A DNA stretch of 30,789 nt from Myxococcales bacterium (GCA_045863395.1 BTVJ01000091.1:1-30789); one strand, 5' to 3'; positions 13,031 to 29,009 are shown, numbered from the stretch's first letter. The notes: generated by a model not told the origin, from the sequence alone. Numbers and translations are program-made.

Positions 13031-13145
13031 CGCCTCTGTCGTTACGGCCTTCGGGCACCCTTCTCCGTCGAGCGATTCTCCGTCCTGCCGGACGGGCGGG
13101 TCAGCTACGAGCTGCGCAAGGCCGTGGGCGGCCGCACGGAGCTGA
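12276..13145 (+). pseudogene. LysR-family regulator, 3'-truncated copy (native sequence ends at 13030; the frame runs on into IS91-like DNA)
   Basis: HTH DLNLLVALDVLLEEGSVAAAARRLRLSASAMSRTLARLR. Identical to the 29400 copy up to ...RHTKGL, after which the last ~50 aa are replaced. Confidence 0.9.
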
Positions 13146-14168
13146 ACCTCGACCCGCTCGACCTCTTCCGTCGCCTGGTGGCCCTACTTCCTGCTCCATG
13201 CGGAAATCTGGTCAGATACCACGGTATTCTCGCCGGCGCTCACAATTTCGCGAGCCACTTCCGCGCCCTGCGGCATCCCTCTCGTCGGACCGCGCGAGAT
13301 CGTGCGGCGCAACAGCCGCTTCCCATCCGAGTTCGGTGGATCGATCCCCCAGACACTTGGCGGTCCCCCCGTCAGCTCCTGCATCAATGCAGCCCCCCGC
13401 CCCTCCGCACGGCGGAACGGTGCCTGGCGCGGCAGCCGACCCGAGGCTCTCCAGACCGTACGACTCGACGCCGAACGGAGAAGCCACAAACCGAGCAGGC
13501 GCGGCCCCACCTCCGCCCCCGCAGAACCAAAACGCCCCGACGATTCACGCCACCGGCCTCCCGCCGCGGAGACGCCTCTCCAGGGCGGCACTGCTCCTTC
13601 GCACACTCGACGTGGACGTGTTGATGTGCACGCGGTGTGCGGCGCCCATGGTCGTCCTCGCCTACTTGACCGACGCCAACGTCGTCAAGCGAATCCTGGC
13701 GCACCTCAGATTGCCGACCGCCCCACCGCCGCTCGCGAGGGCCCCTGACCCGCAGCCCGCGTTCGAGGGGGCTCCACCCTGGACGGACGACCTCACACAC
13801 CCACAGGTCCTCGACGATTCCCCCGAGGCTCCCGCCGGCCGCGGCCCACCGCGAGCCCCGCAGCGCCGCGCCCCTCCTGTCCCAGGAGCAGGCGTCTCCC
13901 GGAAGTTCTGCTGAGGCACCAGCCCACCCTCGATCCCATCGCGGCCGGGCGCTCCGACAGATCCGCCCGCTCAGACCCGTCGCCCCCAACAGACCACCCA
14001 CTACAAGCCCACTGCAAGCCGCCAGAGCCCAAGGTGCCCCCCCCCCGCCCGACCGTTGCTACCGACCGCAGCGCCCCCGCCAATACTCCTCCGTCCACCT
14101 CTCCCACGCAACCCGCTCCACCTGTACCCACCTCGCGCTCCCGAAAGCGCGATGGAACTTCCTATCCG
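13028..14168 (+). mobile_element. IS91/ISCR-like (Y2 rolling-circle) element, 3' remnant with frameshifted transposase C-terminus and oriIS-like end
   Basis: ERLCRYGLRAPFSVERF..LPDGRVSYELRK...LDPLDLFRRLVALLPAP..NLVRYHGILA, then in another frame LLLRTLDVDVLMCTRCAAPMVVLAYLTD..VVKRILAHL. A short hairpin TCGCGCT..AGCGCGA (14133-14152) precedes GAACTTCCTATCC (14155-14167), which resembles ISCR oriIS ends. Confidence 0.8.
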
Positions 14169-14650
14169 CATTCGCCGACATAGAAGGGTGCCCGAAGACC
14201 GTAGCTGCAGAGGCGCCCCAGACCGGTTGGGTCCTGGGCGGCGACGGAGCGGGCTGCGTGGAGAGAGAAGCCCTCGACGTTCGCGCACAGGGGCTTCGGG
14301 GCCGCGCGCCGGTGGGAAGGCTCGGATTTCGTGCTCTCGGGGGCGCTGGCGCATTGGCGGACGAGTGCGTCCTCTGCGTGGGCGTCCTCCCCGTCGGAGT
14401 GACCACCGCTCGGCTCCAGCTGCCGTTGAGCGACGGTTTGGAGGCGCTCCGCAAGGCGCACGGTGAGCATTAAGACGTCATCGTCCGTGTAGGGCAGCAG
14501 GGCGTGGAACTGGCAGCTCTCCGCGCCGTCGCCTGGGAGCAGGAAGAGGCCGTCCGGCACGAGCACATGCACGTGGGGAAAAAGGTCGGAGGTCCTGGAT
14601 GAAGCGCTGAAGGAAGGACACCGAGCCGGTCTGCGCGCTCCCCGCTCCGG
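14169..14650 (-). pseudogene. IS91-family (Y2) transposase internal fragment containing the HUH motif
   Basis: TGSVSFLQRF, a frameshift, then FPHVHVLVPDGLF (HUH) ... CANVEGFSLHA ... GLGRLCSYGLRAPF; truncated at both ends. Confidence 0.8.
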
Positions 14651-14669
14651 CGAACCCCAACCTCCCCCC

Positions 14670-15197
14670 GCGCAGTCGCTGCCAGCGCCCGCGATCAAGG
14701 AGTTCGTCGTCGCGCGCATCTCCGAGACAGCCGCCAACGGCTCGCTGGCCAAGCGCGTTGCCGCGCACCTCGAGACGCTCACCACCGGCAAGGACGAGGA
14801 CTTCGGCAAGCTGCGTACGGAACTGGTGGCGAAGATCGCCGAGACCTCGACGACCGCATCCAAGCTCGCCGAGGAGGTGTTGCGCCTCGAAGGGCGCGCC
14901 CGCGAACTCGTCGAGCAGAAGCTCGGCGTCGAAGCTGATCGCCTCGCCGGGTGCGAGCAGCAACTCCGCGACCTCGAACGGGACGCCGCCGAGCTCGAAA
15001 TCGCCAAGCGAGACCACACCTGGTTCGTCGCCGCGCTCCGCGACTTCGCGAAGGTCTGGGTGAACATGTCGCCCGACAACCAGGGGCGCTTCCTGCGGGC
15101 CCTGATCGACAAGGAGGTCGTCGACGAGGACAAGGGCACCTGCCGGGTCGAGCTGAGCGACTTCGGCGCCGCCTCGGGCACGAGGGACGCGGCATGA
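14670..15197 (+). pseudogene. C-terminal remnant of a large serine recombinase-like protein (coiled coil)
   Basis: LPAPAIKEFVVARI, a long coiled coil, then LRDFAKVWVNMSPDNQGRFLRALIDK.VVD; this is a typical large serine recombinase tail. The catalytic N-terminus is absent, replaced by IS91 debris. Confidence 0.55.
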
Positions 15198-15667
15198 CGG
15201 ACGAGCAGACGACCGAGGAGCAGAGGACAGCGAGCGATTACCGGATCATCGAGGAGAAGGTGTTCTGGCACCGGAGCCGCCGCGTCGGGCGCACCCCGAC
15301 GCCGCCGCCCGACAAGGCCGAGCCCGTGCGCCGGCCCGCCAAGGTCGCTCGCCAGCTCGCCCTCGCGCACCATCTCGAGGCCGCCATCGAGCGCGGGCTC
15401 GTGGCCGACCAGGCCGCACTGGCGCGCAAGCTCGGGCTCACGCGCGCTCGGATCACGCAGCTCATCGACCTGCTGATGCTCGCCTGCGATCCTCAGGAGC
15501 AGGTCCTCGCCCTCGAAGCCGTCGACAGGGTGGAGCCGGTGGCCGAGCGGACGCTGCGGGTGGTTGCGCACGCGGGCATGTGGGTTGAGCAGCGGGCGGC
15601 GTGGGCGAGGATTGCTACCCGCTGGCCTCCCGCCACGCCCCTGACGCCGGAGAGCGCGGTGAGTTGA
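15194..15667 (+). CDS. Small HTH protein of the kind found downstream of large serine recombinases (157 aa)
   Basis: ATGA overlap with the recombinase remnant. ARQLALAHHLEAAIERG.VADQAALARKLGLTRARITQLIDLLMLA.D.QEQVL is HTH-like, followed by W.EQRAAW. Confidence 0.65.
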   Translation: MTDEQTTEEQRTASDYRIIEEKVFWHRSRRVGRTPTPPPDKAEPVRRPAKVARQLALAHHLEAAIERGLVADQAALARKLGLTRARITQLIDLLMLACDPQEQVLALEAVDRVEPVAERTLRVVAHAGMWVEQRAAWARIATRWPPATPLTPESAVS

Positions 15668-15903
15668 AGGCGCATAATGACCTTGCTCGACGTTCTCGCG
15701 CTCCAGACTCCCTCCTCGGAGATCGCAGTCCCGCCTCCTGCGGAGTGCGACGAGTCGTCCTCGACCCGTCTCGATGTCACAGAACTGGATGAAGCCGGGC
15801 GAGATCCAGTGGAATCCATTGATCTCCTGGCCCTTGGGGAGCTACCATCCGACGGCGCCGAGGCCGGCACGACGGTCGAGGAGCCCCGAGAGGGAGACCG
15901 AAG

Positions 15904-16098
15904 GTGGATGATCGATGGCTCTCCGTCGGCGAGATCCCCGAGTACCTCGGGATCAAAAAGGACAGCGTGTGCGCATGGATCGACAAGAAAGGACTTCCAG
16001 GACATCGCATCGGACGCCTCTGGAAGTTCCAGCGATCCGAGATCGACGAGTGGGTCCACAAGGGAAAGGCCGCTGACGCACAGCGAGACGACGAGTGA
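15904..16098 (+). CDS. Excisionase-family (HTH_17-like) DNA-binding protein (64 aa)
   Basis: RWLSVGEIPEYLGIKKDSVCAWIDKKGLPGHRIGRLWKFQRSEIDEWV; purine-rich RBS GAGGGAG; stop lies 13 bp before the methyltransferase ATG. Confidence 0.85.
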   Translation: MDDRWLSVGEIPEYLGIKKDSVCAWIDKKGLPGHRIGRLWKFQRSEIDEWVHKGKAADAQRDDE

Positions 16099-16111
16099 GG
16101 TAACCGAGCGC

Positions 16112-17314
16112 ATGGCGAGGAAGGCACCAACGACGACGAGTGGACGGACTGATCGGCCCGAAGACGATGTCGTGTGCGTGGACCTCTTCTGCGGCGCAGG
16201 CGGGCTCACCCATGGTCTCATCAGCGCGGGTGTGAAGGTCCGCGCGGGCGTCGACTTCGATGAGGCCTGTCGCCACCCCTACGAGGCCAACCACGAGGGA
16301 ATCGTGTTTCACCAAGCCGACGTCGCCGAGCTCGCAGCGTCGACGGTCGCCGAGTGGTTCGGCGACGCGAAGGTGCGCGTTCTCGCTGGCTGCGCGCCGT
16401 GCCAGCCCTTCTCTACGTACGCCCTCCGCTACCAAAAGGACGAGAACGTCGAGGACGACCAGCGTTGGAGCCTCCTCAACCACTTCGGCAGGTTGGTGAG
16501 GGAGCTGCTGCCTGACATCGTCACGATGGAGAACGTCCCCACCGTGACGAGGCACTCGGTGTTCAACAACTTCAAGAGCACGCTGGAGAGCCTCGGCTAC
16601 AAGGTCTCGGTCGATGTCGTCGACTGCGCCGTGTACGGGCTCCCGCAGCGCCGCAACCGCACCGTGCTGCTCGCGTCGCTCCACCGCGACATCAAGCTGC
16701 GTGAGCCGGTCGCCTCCGAGACTCGAACGGTGGAGGATGTCATCAAGGAGATGCCGATCCTTCACCACGGCGGCACCGACAAGAGCGACCGCTTGCACGC
16801 TGCGTCCCGCCTCTCCGACTTGAACCACGAGCGCATCCTGCACTCGAAGCCGGGAGGCACGTGGCGCGATTGGCCGAAGCACCTCGTCGCCAAATGTCAC
16901 ACGAAGAGCACCGGCAAGACGTACCCCGCCGTCTACGGGCGAATGAAGTACGACGAGCCCGCGCCGACTTTGACCACACAGTTCTATGGGTTCGGCAACG
17001 GTCGCTTCGGACACCCGACGCAGGCGCGAGGGCTCTCGCTGCGCGAGGGCGCGTTGCTCCAGGGATTCCCGAGGGACTACTCGTTCGTCCCCGACGACCA
17101 GCCGATCCAGTTCAAGGCGCTGGGCCGCATGATCGGCAACGCGGTACCCGTCGATCTTGGACGCGTGATCGGGCAGAGCATCATCGAGCACGTCAGGCAG
17201 CACGGCAAGAGCTTCGCCGATCACCACGTGCGGCATGTCGAAAGGGCCCCCTCGTCAGCGCACCAAGGAGAGCGTAATGGCCGCGAGCAGAAGGGCCGCG
17301 CCGTCCACGGCTGA
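16112..17314 (+). CDS. dcm: DNA (cytosine-5)-methyltransferase (400 aa)
   Basis: Motif I DLFCGAGG, IV GCAPCQPFS (catalytic PC), VI ENV, VIII QRRNR, IX LSLREGALLQGFP, X IGNAVP. ATG 16112 follows GAGG. Confidence 0.95.
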   Translation: MARKAPTTTSGRTDRPEDDVVCVDLFCGAGGLTHGLISAGVKVRAGVDFDEACRHPYEANHEGIVFHQADVAELAASTVAEWFGDAKVRVLAGCAPCQPFSTYALRYQKDENVEDDQRWSLLNHFGRLVRELLPDIVTMENVPTVTRHSVFNNFKSTLESLGYKVSVDVVDCAVYGLPQRRNRTVLLASLHRDIKLREPVASETRTVEDVIKEMPILHHGGTDKSDRLHAASRLSDLNHERILHSKPGGTWRDWPKHLVAKCHTKSTGKTYPAVYGRMKYDEPAPTLTTQFYGFGNGRFGHPTQARGLSLREGALLQGFPRDYSFVPDDQPIQFKALGRMIGNAVPVDLGRVIGQSIIEHVRQHGKSFADHHVRHVERAPSSAHQGERNGREQKGRAVHG

Positions 17315-17720
17315 AACCAGCCACCGCATGCAGCGGGTTCGGCAGCAGAACACGTCCGCCGAGGCGGCAGTGCGACGTGAGCTGTACGCGTGCGGCCTTC
17401 GCTACCGTATGCAGGTGCAGGTCCTCACCAAGCCCCGCAGGGTCGCCGACGTCGCGTTCAGCGGGCTCCGTGTCGCGGTCTTCGTCGACGGCTGCTTCTG
17501 GCATGGCTGCCCCGAACACGCGACGTGGCCCAAGGCGAACGCCGACTTCTGGCGTTCCAAGATCTTGGCGAACAAGGAGCGTGACCTCGACACCGACCGA
17601 CGCCTTCGGGAAGACGGTTGGGCGGTGGTTCGCGCATGGGCTCACGAGGCGCCCAGCGACGTCGCCTCTCGCGTGGTCAGCGTGGTTCGTTCGCGGCGAA
17701 GGACCGAGAAGAGCCGATGA
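17277..17720 (+). CDS. vsr: Very short patch repair endonuclease
   Basis: SHRMQRVRQQNTSAE...ADVAF....VAVFVDGCFWHGCPEH...PKANADFWRSKI.AN.ERD...GWAVVRAWAHE; overlaps the MTase 3' end. Confidence 0.95.
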   Translation: MAASRRAAPSTAETSHRMQRVRQQNTSAEAAVRRELYACGLRYRMQVQVLTKPRRVADVAFSGLRVAVFVDGCFWHGCPEHATWPKANADFWRSKILANKERDLDTDRRLREDGWAVVRAWAHEAPSDVASRVVSVVRSRRRTEKSR

Positions 17721-20700
17721 CCGACAAGGAGTGCCCCAAGTGCGGAAGGAGTGGTCCGGTTGCCGAGATGTTCGGCATGCGGAACATGACCCGCACCCGC
17801 AAAGACGGGAGCACGGTCGTTGAAGCAAGACCTCAATCCTATTGTCGTGACTGTCGTTCGGCTGGTCCGGTCCAGGAGGAGGAGTCGTCGCTTTCTTCCT
17901 CTGCCAGAACAACGGTTGATGGGGGGTATCAGGTGCCATTTCGCGACGACGAGCCACTCGACAACGAGTGGGCGACTTGGGGCCTTGAGAGGTGGAACTG
18001 GCGCCTCCTCAACCATTTCTTCCGCGTCGTCAATGAGCGTTCTGCTTCCGTCGTGGTGCTACTCGTCACCGCGGACGAACTCGCCCGCGCAGTGCGCGCG
18101 CCAAGCGCGCAAGCGGAGGTTGTTCGCTCCGCATTTCTCAATGCAGTTCGGACTGGCATTCGCCGCTCGGGAAGCTTGCTTGAGCATGCGTCCGACTACC
18201 AAGGCTACCCAGAGGCCCCGCCGCGCTCGGATGCACTTCCCAGGTTCGTCGCACATCTCCTTTTCACCTGCATCGCCGCGTCAGAGTCGTCGGAAGAACT
18301 CGGGAACGAAGGCCAGTTCCTGACGAGGCTTCGTGACCTCTCCGACAACCAACTGCCGGACCACTCGTTGCCGATGCTGCCGCGTCTCTGGCAACACCTC
18401 GCGACGTGGCTGCAGCGGAATTCCGGCCGGTATCGGCCGCTCGTGTTGCCCAACCCCGGTGGGCTCACTCGCATCGGCCACACCGTCAAGCTAGCCTTCC
18501 CAGACAGACGCGACCAGAAGAAGCTATCGGAGATTCTCGATGGTGCTGGGCTGGCTGGGCACGAGCCGCCCGTGGGACGAGTCCTTGCGGTCATCAGCTC
18601 CGCACGACGTAGCTTTGGGTCGTCCTTCATGATCGCGTTCGATGAGTTCCGTCGCCTCTACGAGAGCGTGAACAAGCAGTCCGTTCAACGCCTCGTAGAG
18701 CATCGATTCTGGGCGGCCGTGCGTGACGCGGCCCTTCGGGGACGTGGTCAAGCGAGCGTCACTGAGCTTGGGATTCGCGTCTCGCTCCTTGCGGAAGAAG
18801 AGGAGGACAGCATTGCTCTCTTCGTCGCTGCCGATGAGCGCACCGAGGAGGCTGCGAGTTTCGCGTTCGCCGAGTTGCCCATCGCTTACGGGCCTTGGCA
18901 GTACGCATTGGTTCCAACCGATGATTCAACGCTGGATGCAGAGCGGCTTGAGCGCACCGTCCGCAGCGTTCTTGAAGGAAGGCTCCGTCTTCCGAGGATC
19001 TCGAGCCTCGTGGAACAAGGCTTTCTCCCGTTCGTTGCGGGTTCGCACGGACTGCTAGAGCTGGCGACAGGACACGAACAGCTTGGAGATGTGTCCGTCG
19101 CGCTCGTGCGTGAGGCACTGGTTCCTGATCTGCTCCGGCTCATCGGAGAGCACTCGACACGTACGTCCAACCACGAGGGATGGGTCCAGATCGCGCAGCC
19201 ACGCCTGCGCTCGCTGAGCGCCGAGGAGGTCGAACGATCCACCATCGCGAGGACGTGGATCCTGCAGCAGTCCTTGAACCCGATGATATGCCGCCTCGTC
19301 GGAGGCGTGCGCGCCGAGGATGGCTGGTTGGGCGTAGCCGAAGTGCTGCCAACCGTCGTCGCTCCCGGAGCGTCCAGTGTGGTTCTCGATGGGCCAAGCG
19401 GGCGCATCGATCTCACCAAGGTGGGCGAGGAAGCCTGGACCCTTCCGAGCAAGGACCTCGTCGGCGACTACACGGTTTCCGTCGTCGCGGACGGTGCCTC
19501 CGAGCGTCGTGCGCTTCGGTTCCACTCCACTCCGGTGACCGAGACGTTCAAGCGCGCGACCGACCCCGCAGGATGGATCACCGAGGGACTCCGTGGCACG
19601 GGTACGCTCGAAGACCAGGGCTTCGTCGACGTGCCGTCCGCCCGCGACTTCGCAGCGTATTGTGAGCGCGCTGTTCTGCTCGGCGCGGACGTCGGGGCGT
19701 TCGTGTCGACCCTGGAGGATGCATCCTGGAGGCTCACCCACTTCGCGGGCAAGCTGCTCGCCACCCGTGCTTGTCGGACAGGCGAAGATGCGGTGCCGCG
19801 CCACCAGATCGACAACGCCCATGCGCGTCGCCGCTGGCGCACGATGCTGTTCAACAGCATCCCGGATACGTCGGACCCCCTCTTTGATGAGTCCAGACGC
19901 CAAGCCCGAGGCGCAGCCAACAACCGCAACCTGCCTCGGCGCGAGGTCGAACAGGTCGTTCCCGATGTCGCGCCGCTTCGACTCTCGGCTCCAACGCCTG
20001 CTGTTGAGCGGCTCGTCCGCGTCATCGCAGGTCGGGCGGCGGCACGTGCTGGGCTTGATTGGAGTGAGTGGGCAGAGCTGGCCCAACGAATCATCGGTAT
20101 CGAGAAGCGCGCTGTCGAGCATGTGACGCGCGCGTGGATGGAGGCCGGTCTCATCGACGTCGCCTCCTACGCACGATGGTGGCACAAGCGCATCTTCGCG
20201 CGCGGCCCCCAGCTCGTAGCATTCAAGGTCGGCCAGGGTTTCGGCGCAGCATTGATGGGGCTGGTGCTGCCCACGACGCTTACCGAACTGCAAGCAGCGG
20301 CCTCTCGTCTTGGCCTGCTGGTAGAAGAGCGTTCCTCCGTGTCTTCGTTGGTGCCGCGCAGCCTCGCCCTTCGTGCTCCTACCAGGGAGTCCCTCGAGGG
20401 CTTCGCGACGAGCAAACGTCTGCCAACGCGCTGGCTCGACCTTGCGGTGCTAGAGACGACTCAACCCCGGCACGATGGGTTGTCTCCGCCTCCGACCCAC
20501 TACGAGCGAACGACACGGTGGCACCACTGGTCGCTGGCCGCAGGGGAATCTCCCCGCTTGTTGGTGGAGCATCACATGCGACGTGATCGGCCCGATTTCT
20601 GGACCACGTCGCTCGAGGGCCGTGGCATTTGGTCTTACGACCTCAACATCGCACGCGGCTGGGCGGCTGCTCAGCTCGGCGAGCCTTTGGTTGCAGCGCA

Positions 20701-20917
20701 GGGAGCATCCTTCCTCGATGCCCACCATGGATTCCTTCCGTTGCCGCTCGCGCGCGTGGTCTCCGCGCTCGGCGGCGGCTTGTCAGGCCCCATCGACGGC
20801 AAGCACCGGTACGTCACTGGAACCCCGCAGTTCCGCGAGTTCGTTCTCGACCTCGTTTCACGGGTCTTCGACCCTTCACGCTTGGCAGCGCGAGTCGCCG
20901 AGCAGGCAATTGGATGA
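17717..20917 (+). CDS. Large hypothetical protein (1066 aa) with N-terminal C4 zinc finger; positional equivalent of Druantia DruH
   Basis: ATGA overlap with vsr, and the stop lies 3 bp before the helicase ATG. N-terminal CPKC...PQSYCRDC; no catalytic motif recognised. DruH-likeness rests only on size and position. Confidence 0.75.
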   Translation: MTDKECPKCGRSGPVAEMFGMRNMTRTRKDGSTVVEARPQSYCRDCRSAGPVQEEESSLSSSARTTVDGGYQVPFRDDEPLDNEWATWGLERWNWRLLNHFFRVVNERSASVVVLLVTADELARAVRAPSAQAEVVRSAFLNAVRTGIRRSGSLLEHASDYQGYPEAPPRSDALPRFVAHLLFTCIAASESSEELGNEGQFLTRLRDLSDNQLPDHSLPMLPRLWQHLATWLQRNSGRYRPLVLPNPGGLTRIGHTVKLAFPDRRDQKKLSEILDGAGLAGHEPPVGRVLAVISSARRSFGSSFMIAFDEFRRLYESVNKQSVQRLVEHRFWAAVRDAALRGRGQASVTELGIRVSLLAEEEEDSIALFVAADERTEEAASFAFAELPIAYGPWQYALVPTDDSTLDAERLERTVRSVLEGRLRLPRISSLVEQGFLPFVAGSHGLLELATGHEQLGDVSVALVREALVPDLLRLIGEHSTRTSNHEGWVQIAQPRLRSLSAEEVERSTIARTWILQQSLNPMICRLVGGVRAEDGWLGVAEVLPTVVAPGASSVVLDGPSGRIDLTKVGEEAWTLPSKDLVGDYTVSVVADGASERRALRFHSTPVTETFKRATDPAGWITEGLRGTGTLEDQGFVDVPSARDFAAYCERAVLLGADVGAFVSTLEDASWRLTHFAGKLLATRACRTGEDAVPRHQIDNAHARRRWRTMLFNSIPDTSDPLFDESRRQARGAANNRNLPRREVEQVVPDVAPLRLSAPTPAVERLVRVIAGRAAARAGLDWSEWAELAQRIIGIEKRAVEHVTRAWMEAGLIDVASYARWWHKRIFARGPQLVAFKVGQGFGAALMGLVLPTTLTELQAAASRLGLLVEERSSVSSLVPRSLALRAPTRESLEGFATSKRLPTRWLDLAVLETTQPRHDGLSPPPTHYERTTRWHHWSLAAGESPRLLVEHHMRRDRPDFWTTSLEGRGIWSYDLNIARGWAAAQLGEPLVAAQGASFLDAHHGFLPLPLARVVSALGGGLSGPIDGKHRYVTGTPQFREFVLDLVSRVFDPSRLAARVAEQAIG

Positions 20918-20920
20918 CCC

Positions 20921-23900
20921 ATGTTTGATCCCGTCGGCGGTTTTCAGCGAGTTCGCGAACTCTACATCACCTACCTCGAGACGGCTTTCCGCATCGCCAA
21001 CGAGGGCGTGAGCCGTGAGCGTCGTGCGCTGCTCGAGACTCCTGGCGCGCTCTGCACGGCACCGCTCCTCGAACCGCTGCCTCGGTACAAGTCTGTCGAC
21101 TGGCGGCTTCGCGAACTCGAGACAAACAACGACTGGCTCACACAGTTTACACCCGAGGCTCGTCGAGCCTTCATTCGGTTGGTGTCATCGGGCCTCTTCG
21201 ACAGCGAGGAGGTGCGCCTCTATCGCCACCAAGCATCCATGCTGGAGCGCGGAACGAGGCCGGGGCAGCCGGGCATCGTCACGTCTGGCACGGGCTCGGG
21301 CAAGACCGAGTCGTTCCTGCTGCCGGTTCTTGCCCAGATCGTTCGCGAGGCGAAGACGTGGGCGCGGCCGTCCGATGGCTATCTCCAGCAGGCTTGGTGG
21401 CACGACGGTGACGGGAAGCCTTTCGAGTCCTTCAGCAAGATCCCCGCTGCGCGGAGACCGCTCAAGAAGAACCCCGAGGCTGACCCATTCGTCCTCCACC
21501 GGAACGGCGAGCAACGTCCTTCCGCCGTGCGCTGCTTGGTTCTTTATCCGATGAACGCGCTGGTCGAGGATCAGCTTTCACGCCTCAGGAAAGCACTCGA
21601 CTCGGAGCAGGCCCACGCCGTTCTCGACGAAGAGATTGCTGGCAACCGGATCTTCTTCGGACGCTATACGAGCGACACCCCTGTCACTGGCTTCAATGTT
21701 CATCCTCGCACTGCCCCGAGCGCCGACTACAAGCGGCGCGCGCGCAAGCTCGAGCAGCTCTTCGAGGAGATGGTTCAGTTCCAACGGACCCAACGCATGG
21801 TTCGCGAGCGTTGCGCCGATGAATCGTCAGGGTTGGACGCCGACGACCAGTTTCTCTTTCCAGCGGTCGATGGCGCGGAACTTCTGTCGCGCTGGGACAT
21901 GCAGCAGACGCCTCCCGACATCCTCATCACCAACGTCAGCATGCTCGGAGCCATGCTCAATCGCGAGGTCGATGATCCGGTTTTCGAGACGACCAAGCAG
22001 TGGCTCACGTCGAATGACGGCGCCTATTTCTACCTCGTTCTCGATGAACTCCACTTGCAGCGTGGGGCCGCGGGAACCGAGGTCGCATACCTTCTAAGGC
22101 TATTACTTCATCGCCTCGGCCTGAGCGATCCCGCTCATCGGCACAAGGTGCGGATCTTGGCGTCGAGCGCTTCGCTCCCCGTCGACGGCGAGGAAGGAGC
22201 GCGGAGCCGCACGTACCTCTGGGACATGTTCGGGAGCTTCGGAACGTGGACGTCCACTGGGCAACGCGCGTCTGGGCCCGATGACTGGGGCACGGCCATC
22301 GTGCCGGGTGAGCCCGAGCCCGAAACGCCACGCGGACAAGATGGACTCGCCGCTGCACCGTTCGAAGACTTCCTTCGACAGCATGAGGGGACTGAAACCG
22401 AACCGGCCTGTTCCTCCAACGCGCAGGAACCGCCCGTTCTTGAAGGCGCCTGGCGCGCTGTGGCTGGCGCACTCGGCCTCGATGCGACTGCCGCGTTGGC
22501 CGTCGTCGTTCGCTCGGCCATCGAAGAATCGGCACGCCGGTTGGCGGCGGCGTGCTGGTCGCCGGAAGATGGTAGGCCCCGCGCAGTCGCCATCGATGAA
22601 CTCGGTCGGGTGCTTTTTGGGGGCGCCGGCGCGAGCACCGAGGCCATCCGTGGCCTGCTTCTGGTACGTGGCCTTGGCGACGCCTTTCCGAGGTGGTTCG
22701 CGGCGGAAGCAGCGGGCGCGCCACTTGCTGCACCGTCTTTCCGCCTGCACACGTTCTTCCGCAGCATCGAGGGCGTCTACGCGCCACTTGATCGAGGCGC
22801 GAGTTCTGACGGCGAGTTTCACAACGACCAGCGGAAGATCGGTCGTCTCTCGCTCGAACGAGCAACGAGCACTGGCCTCTCCCAGGAGGCCACCGAGCGT
22901 AGACAGCCTCCGCTGCGCCTTCTCGAAGTCCTCTACTGCGAGTGCTGTGGCGAGATCTTCGTCGGCGGCATGCGGCGGCGACGCGGCACCAACGAGTTCG
23001 AGCTTCTGCCAACTGAGGCTGATCTCGACGGGCTTCCTGATGCTGCTGCGAGCCAGCGTTTCGAGGATCTGTCGTTCGACCAGTACTGCGTGTTCTGGCC
23101 GACGGATCGAACCGGGCAGCCGCCTGTCGCCGATACCGGACAGACTCCTGAATCTTGGGCGGCTGCCTCGTTGGACCCCGCCACAGGAGTCGTGCGTCCG
23201 GTGTCACCAACTCGAGCGGTACCAGACGACCACGCGCGTGGATGGCTCTACGTTCGTGCGAACAGGCAGGATAAGCACAAGCGGAGCAACCAGTACCGCG
23301 GCACCAACGTGCCCTACGAGTGCCCCGCGTGCGAGACAGACTACTCGCCTCGTCGCATCGAGAAGTCTCGTCTGTCCCCGATTCGTCACTTCAGAACCGG
23401 CTTTGCGAAGACGACGCAACTCCTCGCGAGCGACCTCTTCCATCTCCTCAAGTTTCACTCGACGTCGCCGAAGCTCGTGTCCTTCTCCGACAGTCGACAA
23501 GATGCCGCCAAGGCCGCTCTGGACGTGGAAAGCGGTCACCATCAGGACGTTCGGCGTGATGTTCTGATCAATGCGCTCCGCGCGGCACAGGCTGCGTTGC
23601 CCTCGTCGGCGGATAGCAATGCACGACTGGCCGAGCTCACCGCGCAGGTGGCCGAGGCTGCTGGCCGTGCAGACCTGGATCAGGTGCAGAGGCTGTCAGC
23701 CGAGATTGCGCAAGTGCGGCAGCAAGGCGCGGCAGCGGCGGAAGGTACCGTTCGCATCGGCGACATTCTCGAGGACCCGAGGCAGCCGAGGTTCTTGGGG
23801 GCTGCAGACGCCAGGGAGTCGCTCAAGCCGTTGATTCGTGCCTTCGTCGAACTGGGCATCCACCCTGTTCATCCGGCAGGAACCCGCAAGTTCGGTGCGG

Positions 23901-26900
23901 AGGCAGATGGCCAGACGCGCTGGTTCGACTGGAATGAGTTGTTCGAGCGCCGCAACGGGGTGTTCGACTGGCGTGATGACGTTCAGAACCAGCAGTGGCT
24001 CAACGTCGCCCGCACCCAACTCGTCGAGCAGATGCAGAAGCTCGTCACCGAGATTGTCCTCAGCCGCACCTACTTCTCCATCGAGGAAGCTGGCCTCGGC
24101 TACCTGTGCCTGCCGAGAGCCGCCGTCGTAGGTACCGATGCGCGTGCGTTCGAGAACGCGGCCGCGTTCGTGCGTGTCTTCGGCGACGCCTATCGCCTCC
24201 TCGACAGCCCCTATGATCGAACGCCGGACCCGTGGAAAGACGAGAACGCGATCGGATCGACCAACCGAGTTCTTCGTTTCGCGAAGGCTCTTTGGGGTGA
24301 CGCAGACGCCAAGAGGAATGTCGCTGGAGTTCTCACACAGCTTTCGAGCGCTGGGCACCGAGACGGGCTGCTCTCGACAGCATCGCTTCGCGTTCGTCTC
24401 GCCTCGCCGGACGAAGACTTTTGGCGCTGCGGGAAGTGCGCGCGAGTGCATCTGCACAAGGGTGCGGAAATTTGCACGCGGTGCCTTACGCGCCTCCCTA
24501 CGACTGCGAGCGGAAAGGTCAGCGAGATCGTCGCTGCGAACTTCCTCTCCAAGCGGTTGAGCCGTGCCGCCGCTACAGCCTTCCGCCTCCACTGCGAAGA
24601 GCTCACGGGACAGACCGAGAATGGTGCCGACCGACAGCGCAAGTTTAGGGGGATACTGTTTCCCGGCTTCCGCCCGCTCCGCGATGCAGACCGAAAGAAG
24701 GTCTACGACGAGAACGACGATGAAGTTCTCGTCCCTGACGACCCCTTCTTCCTGCCGGAGCGCGAAGAGATCGACCTTCTCGCCGTAACCACGACGATGG
24801 AGGTGGGCATCGACATCGGGCCGTTGCAGGCAGTTCTGCAGGCCAACATGCCGCCGCAGCGGTTCAATTATCAGCAGCGCGTTGGTCGTGCTGGACGGCG
24901 GCGGCAGGCTTATTCATTCGTGCTCACGGTCTGTCGTACCAAGAGTCACGACCTCTACTACTTCCGCGAGCCGCAGAAGATCACTGGCGACGTTCCGCCT
25001 CCGCCGTTCCTCACCAAGAGGATGCCGAACATTGCCCGTCGCTTTCTGCGGAAGTGGTGGCTGAATACTGCTTTCGCCTCCATGCGCGGCGCGGCTTCAC
25101 CGTGGCCGGCGGACGAGATGCGACCGCCGGACATCCACGGCGAGTTCATGCCGACCGACACGTATTTCAACGACGCCTGGCGCCCCCGATTGGAGAGCGC
25201 GCTCAATACCTCGTCGCAGAGTGCCCGCGCGTTCGTCGACCTCCTCTGCGAAGACTCGGCACTCCCGGCCACTGAGGTCTGGCTCTCCGCACCACGCGAG
25301 TTGCTCGACGAGGTCGAGCAACTCGCGGTGCGCCGAGAGTCGCGACGATACGGCCTTGCTCACTCCCTCGCGGAGCAGGGAAATCTGCCGATGTACGGTA
25401 TGCCGACGCGCGTTCGCGATCTCTACGTTGGGACGCGCGAGTCGGCATCCACGCGCCAGACCGATTGGCTCACGATCGATCGCGACCTCGACTTGGCCGT
25501 CTACGAGTTCGCGCCCGGGTCGGTGATCGTGAAGGACAAGAGGGAGCACGTGTGCGTCGGCTTCACTGGGCCGCTACCGGGGTTCTTGTTCAAGCAGCCT
25601 CCGGGCATTCACGTGAACCCGATGTCGGCACCGTTCGGTGAGCCGTTCTGGATGCTCGAGTGCGTCAACTGCGGTTCGTGGTTCCGCTACGACGCACGAC
25701 CCGATGACACCATCGGCGACTGTATCTCGTGCGGTCGTCCGCTTGAGCCCCGCCGCTCAGCCGAGAGCCGAGAGCCGCTGGGGTTCCGAACGAACTTCCG
25801 ACCGTCGGCGGACACGGACAGCGACGGTCCTAGTGGACGACACCGGTCCATACAGTCCGAGGCGGGCGGCTTGTCGTTCACGCAGGCGGGCGGAAGCAAC
25901 CTCGGGATCTTCGTCGGACCACAGATCAAGACCTACCGCCTCAACCGTGGAGGTATCGACCCGGCCAACCCAGGGGCCTGGCTCGGCTACTCTGCGGTGC
26001 TCGGAGAGCAGAAGCTGCGGCGTGGAAATCGAGAGGCGTTCCTTGACAGTCAGATGATCGCCGAGGACCTGCCCGATCCCAACGACGCGCCGAGAGACTT
26101 CACGCCGTATGTGGGAGACGACGCTCAGAGCGTCAGTAGCGTGTGGTTGGCGGCGCCGAAGACCACGGATGCCCTCTATCTCGCGCCGACGGTGATCCCG
26201 AGTGGCTTGAGCATCGAACGGGTTGTTGGGCCTCGCGCGCTCGAAGGTCTCACAGGAGCCCAAGTCCTTGATGCACTTGGACGAACGTCGGTGCGCGCTG
26301 CTGCGCTTTCGGCCACCTTCATCCTCGTGAACCGGGCCGCGCTGCAGCTCGACGTGGATCCCGAAGAGTTCGACGTCATCGAGCCCAGGCTCTTCCGCCC
26401 GTCGGGAGGCGCTGCGGTCCCGGTCCTTCAGTTCGCGGACCATCTCGTGAACGGTGCTGGGTTCTGTGTCGCCCTTGGGGCGCCGGACCCGGCGACGGGC
26501 CGCCCGCTCATCGCGTCGCTCTTGTCGTCGGTGTTGAACGACGCCGACCAGTACCCGTTGAACGAGTTCTTGCGAGGCGACCACGAGACCACCTGCGAGC
26601 AGGGTTGCTACCGATGTCTCCTCCGCTACCGCAATCAGCCTTATCACGGCCTGTTGGATTGGCGGCTGGGGCTGGCGTTCCTTGATGCGTTCGCAAATGC
26701 GAGCAGCAGGTGCGGTCTGGACGGTAACTTCGGAGCGCCCGCTCTGCGAGAGTGGGGTGCGCTTGTCGAGCGCGATGTGTGGCGACTCGAACGTCAGTTC
26801 ACGCGCATGCAGACGAGGCAAGTCGGCTCACTCTGGGCCGCCCGCTTCGATGGCTCCCCGAAGTGGGCACTTATCGCGCACCCGCTGTGGGACGCTTCAG

Positions 26901-27025
26901 ATCCAACAGGAGTCCTGCTCGACGCCGTGACTGCGCTGGGCAATGACCCCTTCGTCATCGTGGACTCTTTCAACCTTGCGCGTCGGCCAGTGACGATCCG
27001 CAAAGCGATCCTCGACGGGGCATGA
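20921..27025 (+). CDS. DExH-box SF2 helicase with C-terminal DUF1998-type Zn domain, DruE-like (2034 aa)
   Basis: Q motif LYRHQ, Walker A SGTGSGKT, Ia [10 protein letters not shown], Ib [50 protein letters not shown]. Several CxxC pairs; C-terminal D..NGAGF and [11 protein letters not shown]...H..LD. Confidence 0.9.
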
Positions 27026-27028
27026 CGG

Positions 27029-28213
27029 GTGGTTCCGCTCCCTCCGACGATGACCGAAGTGACGGTCCCGGACTGCTTCTCACCGTCCGCGCTGGGGGCC
27101 TCAGCGCGCTGTCGCCTGAAGCTGGTCGTCACCTCGTCCACTCGGCGGGCCGAGGGAGACGAGCGGCTTGCATCGGGTCCAGAAGCCATGGTCGGCACCG
27201 TGTTGCATCGGGTGCTCGACCGTGTGGAGCAAGGCGATGAGCTTTCTCCAGACGAGGTCTTCCAGCAGGAGTACGCGAGAGCCGTCGATGAGTTGCAACG
27301 AGACCCTCGGAGGGCTCACTTCGCGGACTTGGCATCGACGAGGTCGCTCGCGGAGTGGAACCGCACGAAGCAGTGGGTGTTGGCGCGAGCGACTCAGCAG
27401 ACCAGCCCGGTGCGTCCAAAAACTGCTGCAACGGCTGGGCAAGGAAGCTCCCGGCTCACCGGGCCCGAGGTGGGCTTCCAGAGCCCGACACTGCGCTTGC
27501 GCGGCAAGGCAGATAGCGTCCGGCAACTTGGGTCCCGCGAGTTCGAAGTTCGCGACTTCAAGACCGGCGTCGTGCTGGATGAGCGCGGTGAGGTGAAATC
27601 GGAGATCGAGCTGCAGCTCTGGGCGTATGCCTTCATGCTGCTCGAGCGTCGCCCGGGATGCCATGTGCGGCTCGTCGTGGATGACGGCGCAGAGCGTGAG
27701 GTTGCCTTCGACGCCGACGCGCGCGCTCGCGCGAAACGTGTTCTGGACGAACTACTCAAGGGTATGCCGCCCGCTGGACCGTCGACGTCTGGCGAACTTG
27801 CCGTACCGGGTAAGGGTTGCTGGGGGTGTCAGGTCCGCCATGTCTGCCCGGCGTATCTCGCGGCAGCGCCTCAATGGTGGCAGCAGTATCCCGACGGCGT
27901 CGACAGGCTCTCTAACGATGTCTGGGGCACGGTCCTTGATGTCATCGGGGAGGGACGGGTCGACGTGGTGCTGCGCGACGCGGCAGGACGCCGAGTGCGC
28001 ATCGACGGGCTCGATCCTCGACATGGCCTGACCTCGGTGCTCGTCGGCAAGAGGGTTTGGTTCTTCGGGCTCGAGGCCACCGGAGCAACCCGAGGTTTCG
28101 ACGGCGGGCGCTTCCACCCGCGATCATTCCATGAGTTGCCGCGAGACAGGATGGAGCGGCGGGCGTGGGCGCTTCACGTCTTCGTCGAAAAAGAGACGGC
28201 AGGTGGCGCATGA
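27029..28213 (+). CDS. PD-(D/E)XK nuclease, RecB/AddB/Cas4-like, with putative 4Fe-4S ligands (394 aa)
   Basis: FSPSAL....RC, GTVLHRVL, LRGKAD, VRDFKTG, QLWAY and C-terminal CWGCQVRHVC give a 1+3 Cys arrangement. GTG starts 3 bp after the helicase stop. Confidence 0.85.
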   Translation: MVPLPPTMTEVTVPDCFSPSALGASARCRLKLVVTSSTRRAEGDERLASGPEAMVGTVLHRVLDRVEQGDELSPDEVFQQEYARAVDELQRDPRRAHFADLASTRSLAEWNRTKQWVLARATQQTSPVRPKTAATAGQGSSRLTGPEVGFQSPTLRLRGKADSVRQLGSREFEVRDFKTGVVLDERGEVKSEIELQLWAYAFMLLERRPGCHVRLVVDDGAEREVAFDADARARAKRVLDELLKGMPPAGPSTSGELAVPGKGCWGCQVRHVCPAYLAAAPQWWQQYPDGVDRLSNDVWGTVLDVIGEGRVDVVLRDAAGRRVRIDGLDPRHGLTSVLVGKRVWFFGLEATGATRGFDGGRFHPRSFHELPRDRMERRAWALHVFVEKETAGGA

Positions 28214-28288
28214 CCCGCAAGAGGAAGCCGACCACCTGGCTCGCCCGCTCCTCTGCGGCTGAGTACCTGACCTTCATGACGGCCAGCA
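28210..28288 (+). pseudogene. rhuM: RhuM-family protein, N-terminal remnant cut by an IS end
   Basis: ATGA overlap with the nuclease. RSSAAEYLTF matches the RhuM-family N-terminus as I recall it; similarity is lost at the IS end at 28289. Confidence 0.6.
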
Positions 28289-28451
28289 CGGAGCGTGTCA
28301 ACGACTTTGAGGCTGCACGATGTCGAATTTTGGGAAGGACGCAGATATGCATCCCGCCCGAGTTGATGCCTCGGCTCGCGCCGTGATGACGAGGCAGGTT
28401 GCCGGCCGGGCCTGGGGCCGAGGACGGACAGGACGTGGCTCACGGTGGTAC

Positions 28452-28614
28452 GGGCTATGGACAGTGCCGTGCCTGCCGGGGAGGGTGGACAGCCCGTGGA
28501 CGGCCGCCGAGGCGGCGCCCGCCCACCGCCTGACCACCCTCCCCTTGGACAACCGATGCGGTTGCCCACAGGCACTTGGACAACCGATGCGGTTGCACAC
28601 ACTGCCCACAGCCC
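28452..28614 (-). other. Multi-branched inverted-repeat element (candidate structured RNA or ssDNA element associated with an IS end)
   Basis: Nested stems 28452-28466/28600-28614, 28469-28475/28569-28575 and 28478-28492/28530-28544, plus two copies of a CAACCG-ATG-CGGTTG hairpin. Confidence 0.6.
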
Positions 28615-28647
28615 CGGCGGCGACGGGGGCAAACAGGCCAGATTCGA

Positions 28648-28697
28648 CCGGACTTTTCGGACGCCGATCACGGCCGGACCTCATCGGCCCCGATGGC
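28648..28697 (+). repeat. Two imperfect tandem repeats resembling an IS21-type terminal region
   Basis: CCGGACTTTTCGGACGCCGAT and CCGGACCTCATCGGCCCCGAT, 26 bp apart. Confidence 0.35.
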
Positions 28698-29009
28698 TGT
28701 ATCATCCTGGGGGGAGCGTGGTGCCCCCTCTGCTTGGGGCCGTAGCGGGTTGATCCAGACCTCACCTCGGGGACGCAGAACGACCGGGCTTCCGTGGGGA
28801 AACCGCTCGGGGTGCGCCTTGAAGGCGGCATCCATGACCGCCTGCCTGGCTGGAAGGAGCTCCTCGATGCGGTCGAAGTGCACGTCCGCCGGGGTGAACA
28901 TCGCCAAGCCGCTGTGATGGTGCTCGTCGTTGTACCAGGCGAAGAAGTCGATGCAGTGGGCACGTCCATCCTCGATGCACCCGAACCTATTGGGGAAGTC
29001 CGGGCTGTA

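What the first reader, a model, noticed from the sequence alone, without database searches (positions are those of the whole stretch)
15904..28213. Candidate new Druantia-related defence operon: HTH, C5-MTase, Vsr, 1066-aa Zn-finger protein, DruE-like helicase, Fe-S Cas4/RecB-like nuclease
Seen: six co-oriented intact ORFs with gaps of 13 bp, a 38-bp overlap, an ATGA overlap, 3 bp and 3 bp, while all surrounding mobile genes are decayed. Known: Druantia systems centre on a ~2000-aa helicase with DUF1998 (DruE); type II carries a cytosine methylase (DruM) with DruF and DruG, and type III is DruH plus DruE. Here one DruH-sized partner occurs together with an MTase, Vsr and a dedicated downstream nuclease, which fits no canonical type I know. 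Inference: an RM-like anti-phage system in which 5mC marks self, the large protein senses, the helicase unwinds and the nuclease degrades. No cognate type II restriction enzyme is visible for the MTase.
Basis: partly seen in the sequence, partly recalled or inferred. Interest (0 to 1): 0.9.

Follow-up and report, generated by a model that had tools for sequence, protein, structure and literature searches.

The report
Druantia type II variant with nuclease
This is an intact six-gene anti-phage operon of the known Druantia type II lineage that has lost one standard gene (druG) and carries a Cas4-like nuclease predicted to dock on the big helicase, so it is a variant of a known system and not a new one.

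Summary
The six co-oriented ORFs exist exactly as described. They are not a new system. The 2034-aa helicase matches PADLOC DruE2 end to end (2021.8 bits). The 1066-aa "Zn-finger protein" is a DruF homologue, not DruH-like. The MTase matches DruM/DrmMII models. The Fe-S nuclease matches PADLOC's DruK model. DruG, required in canonical type II, is missing from the window and from the 97%-complete genome.

Of 78 sources (77 related loci plus the window), 52 could be scored:
- F-E-K without DruG: 24
- F-G-E-K: 14
- canonical F-G-E without DruK: 10
- F-E with neither DruG nor DruK: 3
- DruK with no DruF/DruG abutting DruE: 1

On a DruE tree the DruG-less loci form one nested clade, which implies a single loss. 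DruK keeps all Cas4/AddB catalytic and 4Fe-4S residues. A complex model supports DruK docking on the DruE C-terminus (0.78 against a best control of 0.21). Different 5mC MTase lineages sit beside closely related cores, so the role of methylation remains open.

Verdict: a new variant of a known kind, of moderate interest. My searches found no printed description of DruK.

The parts
15904..16098 (+). 64-aa HTH_17 / excisionase-family DNA-binding protein (MAD1-like), probably the operon regulator. It is an accessory specific to this lineage.
   Evidence: Pfam HTH_17 1.7e-12. PADLOC mad1 3.2e-09. NCBIfam excise TIGR01764 54.8 bits (cut-off 28.8); MADS1 68.3 bits, below its cut-off of 80. By tblastn it was found in only 1 of 77 related loci, L002.
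16112..17314 (+). DruM: 400-aa C5-cytosine DNA methyltransferase with intact motifs (FCGAGG, PCQ Cys97, ENV, QRRNR).
   Evidence: Pfam DNA_methylase 1.4e-53. PADLOC DrmMII 298.5 bits, MTase_II 278 bits, DruM2 242.7 bits. TIGR00675 dcm 122.8 bits, above its cut-off. Motifs.
17277..17720 (+). Vsr very-short-patch-repair T:G mismatch endonuclease, 147 aa. It overlaps druM by 38 bp and druF by ATGA.
   Evidence: TIGR00632 vsr 106.8 bits (cut-off 97.85). Pfam Vsr 4.3e-16. PADLOC Vsr 4.9e-12.
17717..20917 (+). DruF homologue, 1066 aa. It has a lineage-specific N-terminal CxxC...CxxC zinc ribbon (residues 1-48, nt 17717-17860), an all-helical DruF signature domain (about 82-353), an Ig-like beta-sandwich (about 522-607) and a mixed alpha/beta C-terminal half. 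No catalytic motif was recognised.
   Evidence: PADLOC DruF2 PDLC00019 2e-32 over residues 90-381, DruF4 6.9e-06. No Pfam or NCBIfam hit. 56 relatives, all unnamed. AF2 models with pLDDT 82.4 and 88.6 for the N-domain. The only fold match is Ig-like, Z 8.0. No homology to DruG (hhalign probability 0.3%).
20921..27025 (+). DruE, type II lineage: 2034-aa YprA/MrfA-like SF2 helicase with Walker A GSGKT125, DELH375, motif [10 protein letters not shown]1319, several Cys4 zinc modules and a C-terminal nuclease-like domain.
   Evidence: PADLOC DruE2 PDLC00014 2021.8 bits over positions 1-1921 of 1928, against DruE4 1282.7, DruE1 479 and DruE3 236.5 bits. Pfam DEAD and Helicase_C. Solved homologue 9wae_A, 1286.8 bits over the full length. 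Invariant residues.
27029..28213 (+). DruK: 394-aa Cas4/AddB-type 4Fe-4S PD-(D/E)XK nuclease (core about 17-274) plus a conserved C-terminal domain (about 275-394, nt 27851-28210) predicted to dock on DruE.
   Evidence: PADLOC DruK PDLC00058 3.2e-26, positions 14-382 of 388. Pfam PDDEXK_1 3.5e-20. Invariant C28, H60, E147, D162, D176, K178, Q196, Y200, C264, C267, C273 in 30 sequences (at least 95% conserved in 42 sequences). Complex model score 0.78 against a best control of 0.21.
13124..15841 (.). Upstream flank with stop-broken, sub-threshold IS91-type transposase remnants. This is a possible scar of the element that delivered the island.
   Evidence: Y2_Tnp 18.3 and 17.2 bits, both below the 20.9 cut-off. 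GC falls from about 71% to about 64% at around 16 kb.

Best explanation
The locus is an intact anti-phage operon of the Druantia type II lineage in a derived form: HTH - druM - vsr - druF - druE - druK, without druG. The likely mechanism is inferred, not shown.

1. DruM puts 5-methylcytosine on host DNA. Vsr repairs the T:G mismatches that 5mC deamination creates, which is the classical Dcm-Vsr partnership.
2. DruF, a large multidomain protein of unknown fold, works with DruE as the partner or sensor subunit.
3. DruE, a YprA/MrfA-type SF2 helicase, loads on invading DNA or its single-stranded or forked intermediates and unwinds it with ATP, as reported for type III DruE.
4. The C-terminal nuclease-like domain of type I/II DruE is reported to be inactive. 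The cutting is therefore done in trans by DruK, a Cas4/AddB-like Fe-S nuclease held on the DruE C-terminal zinc-ribbon region by its own extra C-terminal domain.
5. The small HTH protein probably regulates the operon.

Shown here: gene identities, intact motifs, recurrence of the gene set, a single loss of druG, and a supported DruE-DruK interface model. Inferred: every biochemical step and the defence phenotype itself.
For: - Identity: DruE2 2021.8 bits over the full length, DruF2 2e-32, DruM2/DrmMII, DruK 3.2e-26, Vsr. dcm and vsr score above the NCBIfam cut-offs.
- Recurrence: DruK-like sequence lies downstream of DruE in 9 of 9 genome loci, though only fragments remain in L003.
- Architectures: of 52 sources evaluable out of 78, there were 24 F-E-K, 14 F-G-E-K, 10 F-G-E without K, 3 F-E without K, and 1 other.
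- MTase and Vsr linkage: among 29 loci with at least 6 kb upstream and at least 5 kb downstream, an MTase was present in 28 and Vsr in 23.
- Phylogeny: the DruG-less loci form one clade of 24 rows (SH-like support 98-99) nested among DruG-containing rows, also when rooted on two other DruE-like proteins of the same genome.
- DruK active site: catalytic residues and four Cys are invariant in 30 of 30 sequences.
- Complex model of DruE 1435-2034 with DruK: score 0.78 (runs 0.74, 0.78, 0.78) against a best control of 0.21. That mark was reached by 116 of 157 solved complexes and 2 of 215 mismatched pairs. The runs agree in at least 88% of contacts, and the partner's pLDDT is 83. The interface uses DruK 321-375 and DruE 1580-1614 (the C1581/C1584/C1601/C1604 zinc ribbon) and 1991-2013. 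DruK has no solved sequence relative at E<=0.1, so the pass is unlikely to come from memory of a like complex.
- Island features: lower GC and a patchy distribution, with the DruF profile found in 5 of 401 sampled genomes of the phylum, including this one.
- Literature: type II requires DruM and DruG besides DruE and DruF (PMC8565338, passages). DruE of types I/II has a predicted inactive Vsr-like C-terminal domain (PMC12458937, section 8 and Table S2). Type III DruE engages ssDNA intermediates (abstracts in the listing).
Against: - There is no experimental datum for any type II Druantia mechanism in the papers I could search, and none for this locus.
- DruG, a required gene of canonical type II, is absent from the window and was not found in the genome (97.4% complete). 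PADLOC's strict type II rule may therefore not call this locus; I could not run it.
- MTase coupling is uncertain. At least four MTase lineages, less than 45% identical to each other, sit up- or downstream on either strand. Sister cores L002 and L020 carry different lineages. Some loci have their own nuclease candidates beside the MTase (HNH in L003, a methyl-directed REase model in L005). 1 of 29 large loci had no MTase.
- DruF gave no informative fold or family match, so its 'sensor' role is a guess.
- That this DruE's C-terminal domain is inactive is taken from a paper's representative (Massilia sp. Leaf139). It was not tested on this protein, and several polar residues there are invariant (D1934, H1987, D1991).
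- The sample of loci was drawn with peptide patterns from the window's own relatives and contains near-duplicates (L025/L034, L041/L042, L032/L033), so the proportions are biased.
- The trees are FastTree with long outgroup branches.
Confidence: 0.75

Rival explanations
1. There are two independent neighbours. HTH-M-Vsr would be a solitary or orphaned cytosine-methylation module, for example the remnant of a type II RM system or a regulatory methylase. It would merely sit beside a methylation-independent F-E-K helicase-nuclease defence core that senses DNA structure (ends, ssDNA, forks), as type III Druantia does.
For: - MTase lineages are swapped on closely related cores and occupy variable positions and strands.
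- Extra nuclease candidates lie next to the MTase in L003 and L005.
- One of 29 large loci lacks an MTase, and 6 of 29 lack Vsr.
- Druantia III shows no host methylation and works on DNA intermediates (10.64898/2026.05.12.722862, passages; abstracts in the listing).
Against: - An MTase is present in 28 of 29 large loci across all architecture classes.
- DruM is a requisite gene of canonical type II (PMC8565338).
- In the window, vsr overlaps both druM (38 bp) and druF (ATGA), which suggests one translationally coupled transcript.
- No cognate restriction gene fits in the operon.
Confidence: 0.17
2. It is a housekeeping DNA-repair module and not immunity: a MrfA/YprA-type repair helicase with an AddB/Cas4-like nuclease and Vsr, acting on endogenous damage.
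For: - The YprA family includes repair helicases (6znp YprA, 31.1 bits; PMC12458937 describes a repair branch).
- Vsr and AddB-like nucleases are repair enzymes by family.
Against: - The best match by far is the defence-type DruE2 (2021.8 bits) against 31 bits to YprA.
- The distribution is rare and patchy, 5 of 401 genomes of the phylum.
- The locus is a lower-GC island beside transposase remnants.
- The same genome carries further DruE1-like and DruE3/ARMADA-like loci, typical of defence repertoires.
Confidence: 0.04
3. It is a decaying canonical type II system. Loss of druG would have inactivated it, and the remaining ORFs are open only because the loss is recent.
For: - DruG is requisite in the canonical definition and absent here.
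- Some relatives are visibly broken: L004 and L009 have frameshifts and L003 has DruK fragments.
Against: - The DruG-less architecture forms a deep clade of 24 rows, with DruE identities down to about 42% and members from several phyla (Myxococcota, Pseudomonadota, an Actinomycetes MAG). All five core ORFs are intact in most members. That is long-term purifying selection without DruG.
Confidence: 0.04

Closest known systems
Druantia type II (DruM-DruF-DruG-DruE; called 'Type IV CoCoNuT' in PMC12458937)
   Same: There is a full-length DruE2-type helicase (2021.8 bits), a DruF homologue and a C5 cytosine methyltransferase, with the same gene order M-F-...-E. [quoted passage not shown] Root983, the source of DruF homologue P0045, and Massilia sp. 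Leaf139.
   Different: There is no DruG, the coiled-coil protein. Vsr is inserted between druM and druF. A DruK Fe-S nuclease follows druE. An HTH gene sits in front, and DruF carries an N-terminal zinc ribbon in this sublineage only.
Druantia type III (DruH-DruE)
   Same: A large YprA-type helicase is paired with a partner of about 1000-1100 aa. The probable action is on ssDNA or forked intermediates, with a nuclease activity coupled to the helicase (abstracts in the listing).
   Different: DruE3 models score only 236.5 bits against 2021.8 for DruE2, and no DruH model hit the 1066-aa protein. Type III DruE carries its own PLD nuclease in cis and has no methylase (PMC12458937 section 8). Here the nuclease is a separate PD-(D/E)XK protein.
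Druantia type IV of PADLOC (DruE-DruF-DruL, no DruM/DruG)
   Same: It has DruE plus DruF without DruG (PMC8565338).
   Different: The DruE4 and DruF4 models score far below the type II models (1282.7 against 2021.8 bits; 6.9e-06 against 2e-32). No DruL hit was found, and DruM is present.
Cas4 / AddB-type 4Fe-4S RecB-family nucleases
   Same: DruK has one N-terminal Cys plus CX2CX5C, D...DxK and QxxxY, all invariant. Pfam PDDEXK_1 scores 3.5e-20, and there are weak TIGR cas4 and addB hits.
   Different: DruK is below the cas4 family cut-off (25.6 against 65 bits). It has an extra C-terminal domain of about 120 aa, and it is always encoded directly after druE and not with CRISPR or AddA.
Dcm-Vsr pair of enterobacteria
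   Same: A C5 cytosine methylase gene overlaps a vsr gene, and both are above the family cut-offs. The overlap is 38 bp.
   Different: Here the pair is embedded in a defence operon and translationally coupled to druF.

Membership tests
Druantia type II | DruE of the type II clade (about 1900-2000 aa YprA-like helicase) | tested here: met
   PDLC00014 DruE2 2021.8 bits, positions 1-1921 of 1928.
Druantia type II | DruM cytosine-5 methyltransferase in the locus | tested here: met
   PF00145 1.4e-53. DruM2 PDLC00033 242.7 bits. Catalytic PCQ and other motifs are present.
Druantia type II | DruF | tested here: met
   DruF2 PDLC00019 2e-32, but over the N-terminal 300 residues only. The protein is collinear over residues 83-1041 with the DruF of DruG-containing loci.
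Druantia type II | DruG | tested here: not met
   No DruG model hit at E<=10 on the 1066-aa protein. druF abuts druE with a 3-bp gap. There was no PDLC00025 match in the own genome, which is 97.4% complete. DruF and DruG profiles are unrelated (hhalign probability 0.3%).
Druantia type III | DruH partner and a DruE3-type helicase with a C-terminal PLD nuclease | tested here: not met
   No DruH hit. DruE3 models scored 236.5 bits or less, against 2021.8 for DruE2.
Druantia type IV (PADLOC) | DruE4 + DruF4 + DruL, lacking DruM | tested here: not met
   The type IV models score well below the type II models. No DruL hit was found, and DruM is present.
DISARM class 2 | DrmA, DrmB (DUF1998) and DrmC with DrmMII | tested here: not met
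   Only the MTase matches a DISARM model strongly (DrmMII 298.5 bits). DrmA scored 38.7 bits on DruE, and there were no DrmB or DrmC hits.
Cas4/AddB-type Fe-S PD-(D/E)XK nuclease (for DruK) | D...(D/E)xK and QxxxY active site plus four-Cys cluster ligands | tested here: met
   D162, D176, K178, Q196, Y200, C28, C264, C267 and C273 are invariant in 30 of 30 sequences. Metal cluster binding and activity are not testable here.
Classical type II restriction-modification | A cognate restriction endonuclease gene beside the MTase | tested here: not met
   The ORFs are packed with no room for one. No REase model hit any of the six proteins.
Anti-phage defence system (functional) | Protection against phage or plasmid when expressed | not testable with these tools
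   This needs a cloning and challenge experiment.

The most novel reading that the evidence does not exclude
The DruK-bearing, DruG-less operons would be a distinct and so far undescribed Druantia subtype. In it a Cas4-like Fe-S nuclease is a fixed subunit clamped on the DruE zinc-ribbon/C-terminal domain. It supplies in trans the nuclease that type III DruE carries in cis. DruG would be dispensable. Because unrelated 5mC methylase lineages are exchanged on nearly identical F-E-K cores, the core would read cytosine-methylation status independently of sequence motif, or not at all. That is a different logic from restriction-modification.
Probability: 0.3. Interest if true: 0.6.

Novelty: new variant of a known kind. 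Interest (0 to 1): 0.42.

Why it matters
In the papers I could search, type II Druantia has no published mechanism. Three points from this locus and its relatives make the system more tractable.

1. The "canonical" four-gene M-F-G-E form is only one branch of the lineage.
2. Most sampled relatives carry a dedicated Cas4-like nuclease, DruK. It exists as PADLOC models but was not found in print. It is predicted to bind the DruE C-terminus, which gives the missing effector a concrete candidate and gives mutagenesis precise targets.
3. DruG can be lost without decay of the rest, and MTase modules are interchangeable. Both constrain models of how self is told from non-self.

For annotation, it shows that strict type II rules requiring DruG may miss a sizeable clade.

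Tried and rejected
- DruF fold and family. No hit came from Pfam or NCBIfam, from a PDB profile search at E<=1, or from the ESM Atlas. Foldseek on the whole model and on the N-domain gave nothing at E<=0.001. VIA-align wide gave only an Ig-like sandwich for residues 522-607 (Z 8.0, rmsd 3.0, 83 aligned). For the N-domain the best match was Z 5.6 to ScpA (rmsd 4.1, 79 aligned), which is within noise. No fold assignment is made. The C-terminal half was not folded alone.
- DruF as a DruF-DruG fusion. Rejected: it is collinear with stand-alone DruF and hhalign of DruF against DruG gives probability 0.3%.
- DruG identity. Pfam and PDB sequence searches gave only sub-threshold coiled-coil-like hits. 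This is consistent with, but does not prove, the coiled-coil CnuB-like protein mentioned in PMC12458937.
- PDB 9wae, the solved close DruE homologue. No paper was found for it, and the composition of the entries is unknown to me.
- Promoter and terminator scan of 15200-28900. Counts were at or below shuffle expectation.
- Earlier-findings look-ups by place and by DruK sequence returned nothing.
- DruK in print. The search 'Druantia'+'DruK' found 0 papers. The PADLOC supplement has 0 occurrences. 'Cas4' occurs 0 times in the main text and Table S1 of PMC12458937. The figures of these papers are not held, so an operon cartoon showing such a nuclease cannot be excluded.
- Viral carriage. Only 1 locus, at 30% identity, was found in the viral contig collection.
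- The HTH as a conserved component. Rejected: it was found in 1 of 77 loci.


Full report
OBSERVATION. The window is a whole 30,789-bp contig (C91) of an 8.77-Mb, roughly 70% GC genome in 186 contigs. Their junctions are +13, -38, -4 (ATGA), +3 and +3 bp. The block is lower in GC than the rest of the contig (64.4% against 70.9%). The flanks carry ordinary chromosomal genes (MFS transporter, LysR regulators, MacB-like). The only mobile-element evidence is two sub-threshold IS91-type transposase matches in broken frames upstream. The claim of 'decayed mobile genes' is therefore plausible but thin.

IDENTITY OF THE GENES. Against PADLOC-DB the helicase matches DruE2 over its full length: 2021.8 bits, positions 1-1921 of 1928. 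The other DruE models score lower (DruE4 1282.7, DruE1 479, DruE3 236.5 bits).
- The 1066-aa protein matches DruF2 (2e-32) over residues 90-381. It matches no DruH, DruG or DruL model, even at E<=10.
- The methylase matches DrmMII, type II MTase and DruM2 models (298.5, 278 and 242.7 bits). It passes the NCBIfam dcm cut-off and keeps FCGAGG, PCQ (Cys97), ENV and QRRNR.
- Vsr passes the TIGR00632 cut-off (106.8 against 97.85 bits).
- The nuclease matches PADLOC's DruK model end to end (3.2e-26, positions 14-382 of 388) and Pfam PDDEXK_1 (3.5e-20).
- The small first gene is an HTH_17/excisionase-family protein, closest to MAD1 of the MADS system but below that family's cut-off.

Five of the six genes thus have existing Druantia or RM models.

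WHAT IS MISSING. The PADLOC paper states that DruM and DruG are requisite for type II, and that type IV has DruE, DruF and DruL without DruM or DruG (PMC8565338, passages read). Here druF abuts druE, and no DruG-like sequence was found in the window or in the 97.4%-complete genome. The DruF here is collinear with stand-alone DruF proteins of DruG-containing loci. A profile-profile comparison of DruF and DruG alignments finds no relationship (probability 0.3%). DruG has therefore been lost, not fused.

RECURRENCE. A scan of one genome per species gave 9 loci, and a metagenome scan gave 68 more. Of the 78 sources, 52 had enough flank to score both the gene abutting druE upstream and the presence of druK downstream:

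| Architecture | Loci |
|---|---|
| F-E-K (the window's form) | 24 |
| F-G-E-K | 14 |
| F-G-E without K (canonical form) | 10 |
| F-E without K | 3 |
| Other (no DruF/DruG abutting DruE, with K) | 1 |

The remaining 26 were cut by contig ends.
- Among 29 loci with at least 6 kb upstream and 5 kb downstream, 28 held a C5 MTase and 23 held a Vsr.
- The exact order HTH-M-Vsr-F-E-K recurs in Sorangium sp. So ce315 (L002).
- Other F-E-K loci come from a Myxococcales MAG (L001) and an Actinomycetes MAG (L004). Luteimonas salinisoli (L003) is F-E with only DruK fragments left. F-G-E-K loci come from Gemmatimonadota and a Pseudomonadota MAG.
- Caveats: the sampling used peptide patterns from the window's relatives, three pairs of loci are near-duplicates, and some MAG loci carry frameshifts (L004, L009).

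PHYLOGENY. A FastTree of 50 full-length DruE proteins puts all 24 DruG-less rows in one clade (support 98). With two other DruE-like proteins of the same genome as outgroup the support is 99. This clade is nested among DruG-containing rows, so one loss of druG explains the architecture. The canonical K-less rows form their own clade of 10 (8 scored K-less; 2 lack enough downstream flank). The base of the tree is unresolved and the outgroup branches are long, so I cannot say whether DruK is ancestral. Contig C44 of the same genome holds a partial DruE1 (755.4 bits) followed by a DruK-like gene (PDLC00059, 2.7e-14), which hints that DruK accompanies types I and II alike.

DruK. In 30 aligned DruK proteins the residues C28, H60, E147, D162, D176, K178, Q196, Y200, C264, C267 and C273 are invariant; they are at least 95% conserved in 42 sequences. 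This is the Cas4/AddB signature of a 4Fe-4S RecB-family nuclease, a motif assignment from family knowledge. DruK also has a conserved extra domain of about 120 residues at its C-terminus.

A complex prediction of DruE residues 1435-2034 with DruK supports binding. The score was 0.78 (three runs: 0.74, 0.78, 0.78) and the best of three controls was 0.21. That mark was reached by 116 of 157 solved complexes and 2 of 215 mismatched pairs. The runs agree in at least 88% of contacts, and the partner's pLDDT is 83. The counts hold only roughly because my own alignments were used.

The interface joins DruK 321-375 to DruE 1580-1614, which holds the invariant C1581/C1584/C1601/C1604 zinc ribbon, and to DruE 1991-2013. 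DruK has no solved sequence relative. This is a model, not a measurement.

DruE AND THE LITERATURE. A solved 'Helicase' of 1970 aa (9wae and six further entries) matches DruE over its full length (1286.8 bits). I found no paper for it.

The YprA-family preprint PMC12458937 groups Druantia types I and II as 'Type IV CoCoNuT'. It reports a predicted inactive Vsr-like C-terminal domain in their DruE, and mentions an inactivated coiled-coil CnuB homologue in the operon. I read its abstract, sections 3, 5 and 8, the figure legends and Tables S1 and S2. Its Table S1 lists helicases only. It labels helicases of Lysobacter sp. Root983 (the organism of DruF homologue P0045) and Massilia sp. Leaf139 as 'Druantia Type II-like'.

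My DruG alignment gives only coiled-coil-like weak hits, which is compatible with DruG being that CnuB-like protein. For type III, abstracts seen in a search listing describe DruE as a helicase-nuclease acting on ssDNA-containing or forked intermediates. One preprint found no host methylation by type III (passages).

DruF. It has 56 relatives, all unnamed and without Pfam domains. The zinc ribbon (C6, C9, C43, C46) is present only in relatives at least 70% identical, which are 1064-1068 aa long; the others are about 985 aa. AlphaFold models are confident: pLDDT 82.4 for the whole protein and 88.6 for residues 82-353. They match nothing informative, apart from an Ig-like sandwich at 522-607. 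Its function remains unknown, and calling it a sensor is a guess by analogy with DruH.

METHYLASE MODULE. The 52 well-aligned MTase ORFs fall into four main clusters that are less than 45% identical to each other (15, 13, 12 and 9 members), plus three singletons. The two largest clusters each include both DruG-less and DruG-containing loci; cluster 2 is confined to DruG-containing loci. Three of the four main clusters lie up- or downstream of druE on either strand. The sister cores L002 and L020 carry different clusters. The near-universal presence of an MTase argues for functional coupling. The free exchange of lineages argues against a motif-specific read-out by the F-E-K core. I keep 'independent neighbours' as the main rival, at 0.17.

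DISTRIBUTION. The DruF profile hits 5 of 401 sampled genomes of the phylum including this one, and none of the sampled genomes of the same class or order. One locus, at 30% identity, was found in the viral contig collection. This patchiness, together with the GC drop, fits horizontal acquisition.

VERDICT. The locus is a Druantia type II-lineage operon in a derived, recurrent architecture: without DruG, with DruK and Vsr, plus a lineage-specific HTH and zinc ribbon. It is a new variant of a known kind. My additions are:
- the single-loss phylogeny;
- the finding that K-bearing forms outnumber the canonical form in this biased sample;
- the invariant DruK active site;
- a supported DruE-DruK interface model.

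No function has been shown experimentally.

Noticed in passing
window 3811-9099 (+): A 1762-aa ORF with a hydrophobic, signal-peptide-like N-terminal stretch. It holds dozens of Cys-rich repeats of the CxxDxDCxDGxxCTxDxC type, which by my recollection are typical of myxobacterial secreted proteins. It has no Pfam hit and no Atlas neighbour.
   Followed up: partly
own genome contig C44, L088:98-4332: A DruE1-type helicase lies close to the contig start and matches only DruE1 model positions 777-1770 (755.4 bits). It is followed directly by a DruK-like PD-(D/E)XK nuclease (PDLC00059 2.7e-14). DruK therefore also accompanies a type I Druantia helicase in the same genome.
   Followed up: partly
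own genome contig C41, L087:3029-10091: A third YprA-type helicase of 1883 aa (best match DruE3, 394.4 bits) is preceded by a fragment matching a type IIG REase-MTase / PglX-like model (217.3 bits). This may be an ARMADA-like or type III-like system. The genome thus carries three DruE-like loci.
   Followed up: partly
L005:3219-4493; L003:6017-7069: Some related Druantia loci insert extra nuclease genes between the MTase/Vsr module and druF. L005 has a strong match to a methyl-directed type II REase model (518.6 bits), and L003 has an HNH (86.3 bits).
   Followed up: no
L003:16085-16476: In Luteimonas salinisoli the DruK position holds only two short DruK-like fragments. This looks like a decayed druK beside intact druF and druE.
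   Followed up: no
window 1687-3015 (+): This ORF has a PCYCGC-motif domain (PF13798, 1.2e-09) at its C-terminus. It is unrelated to the finding.
   Followed up: no
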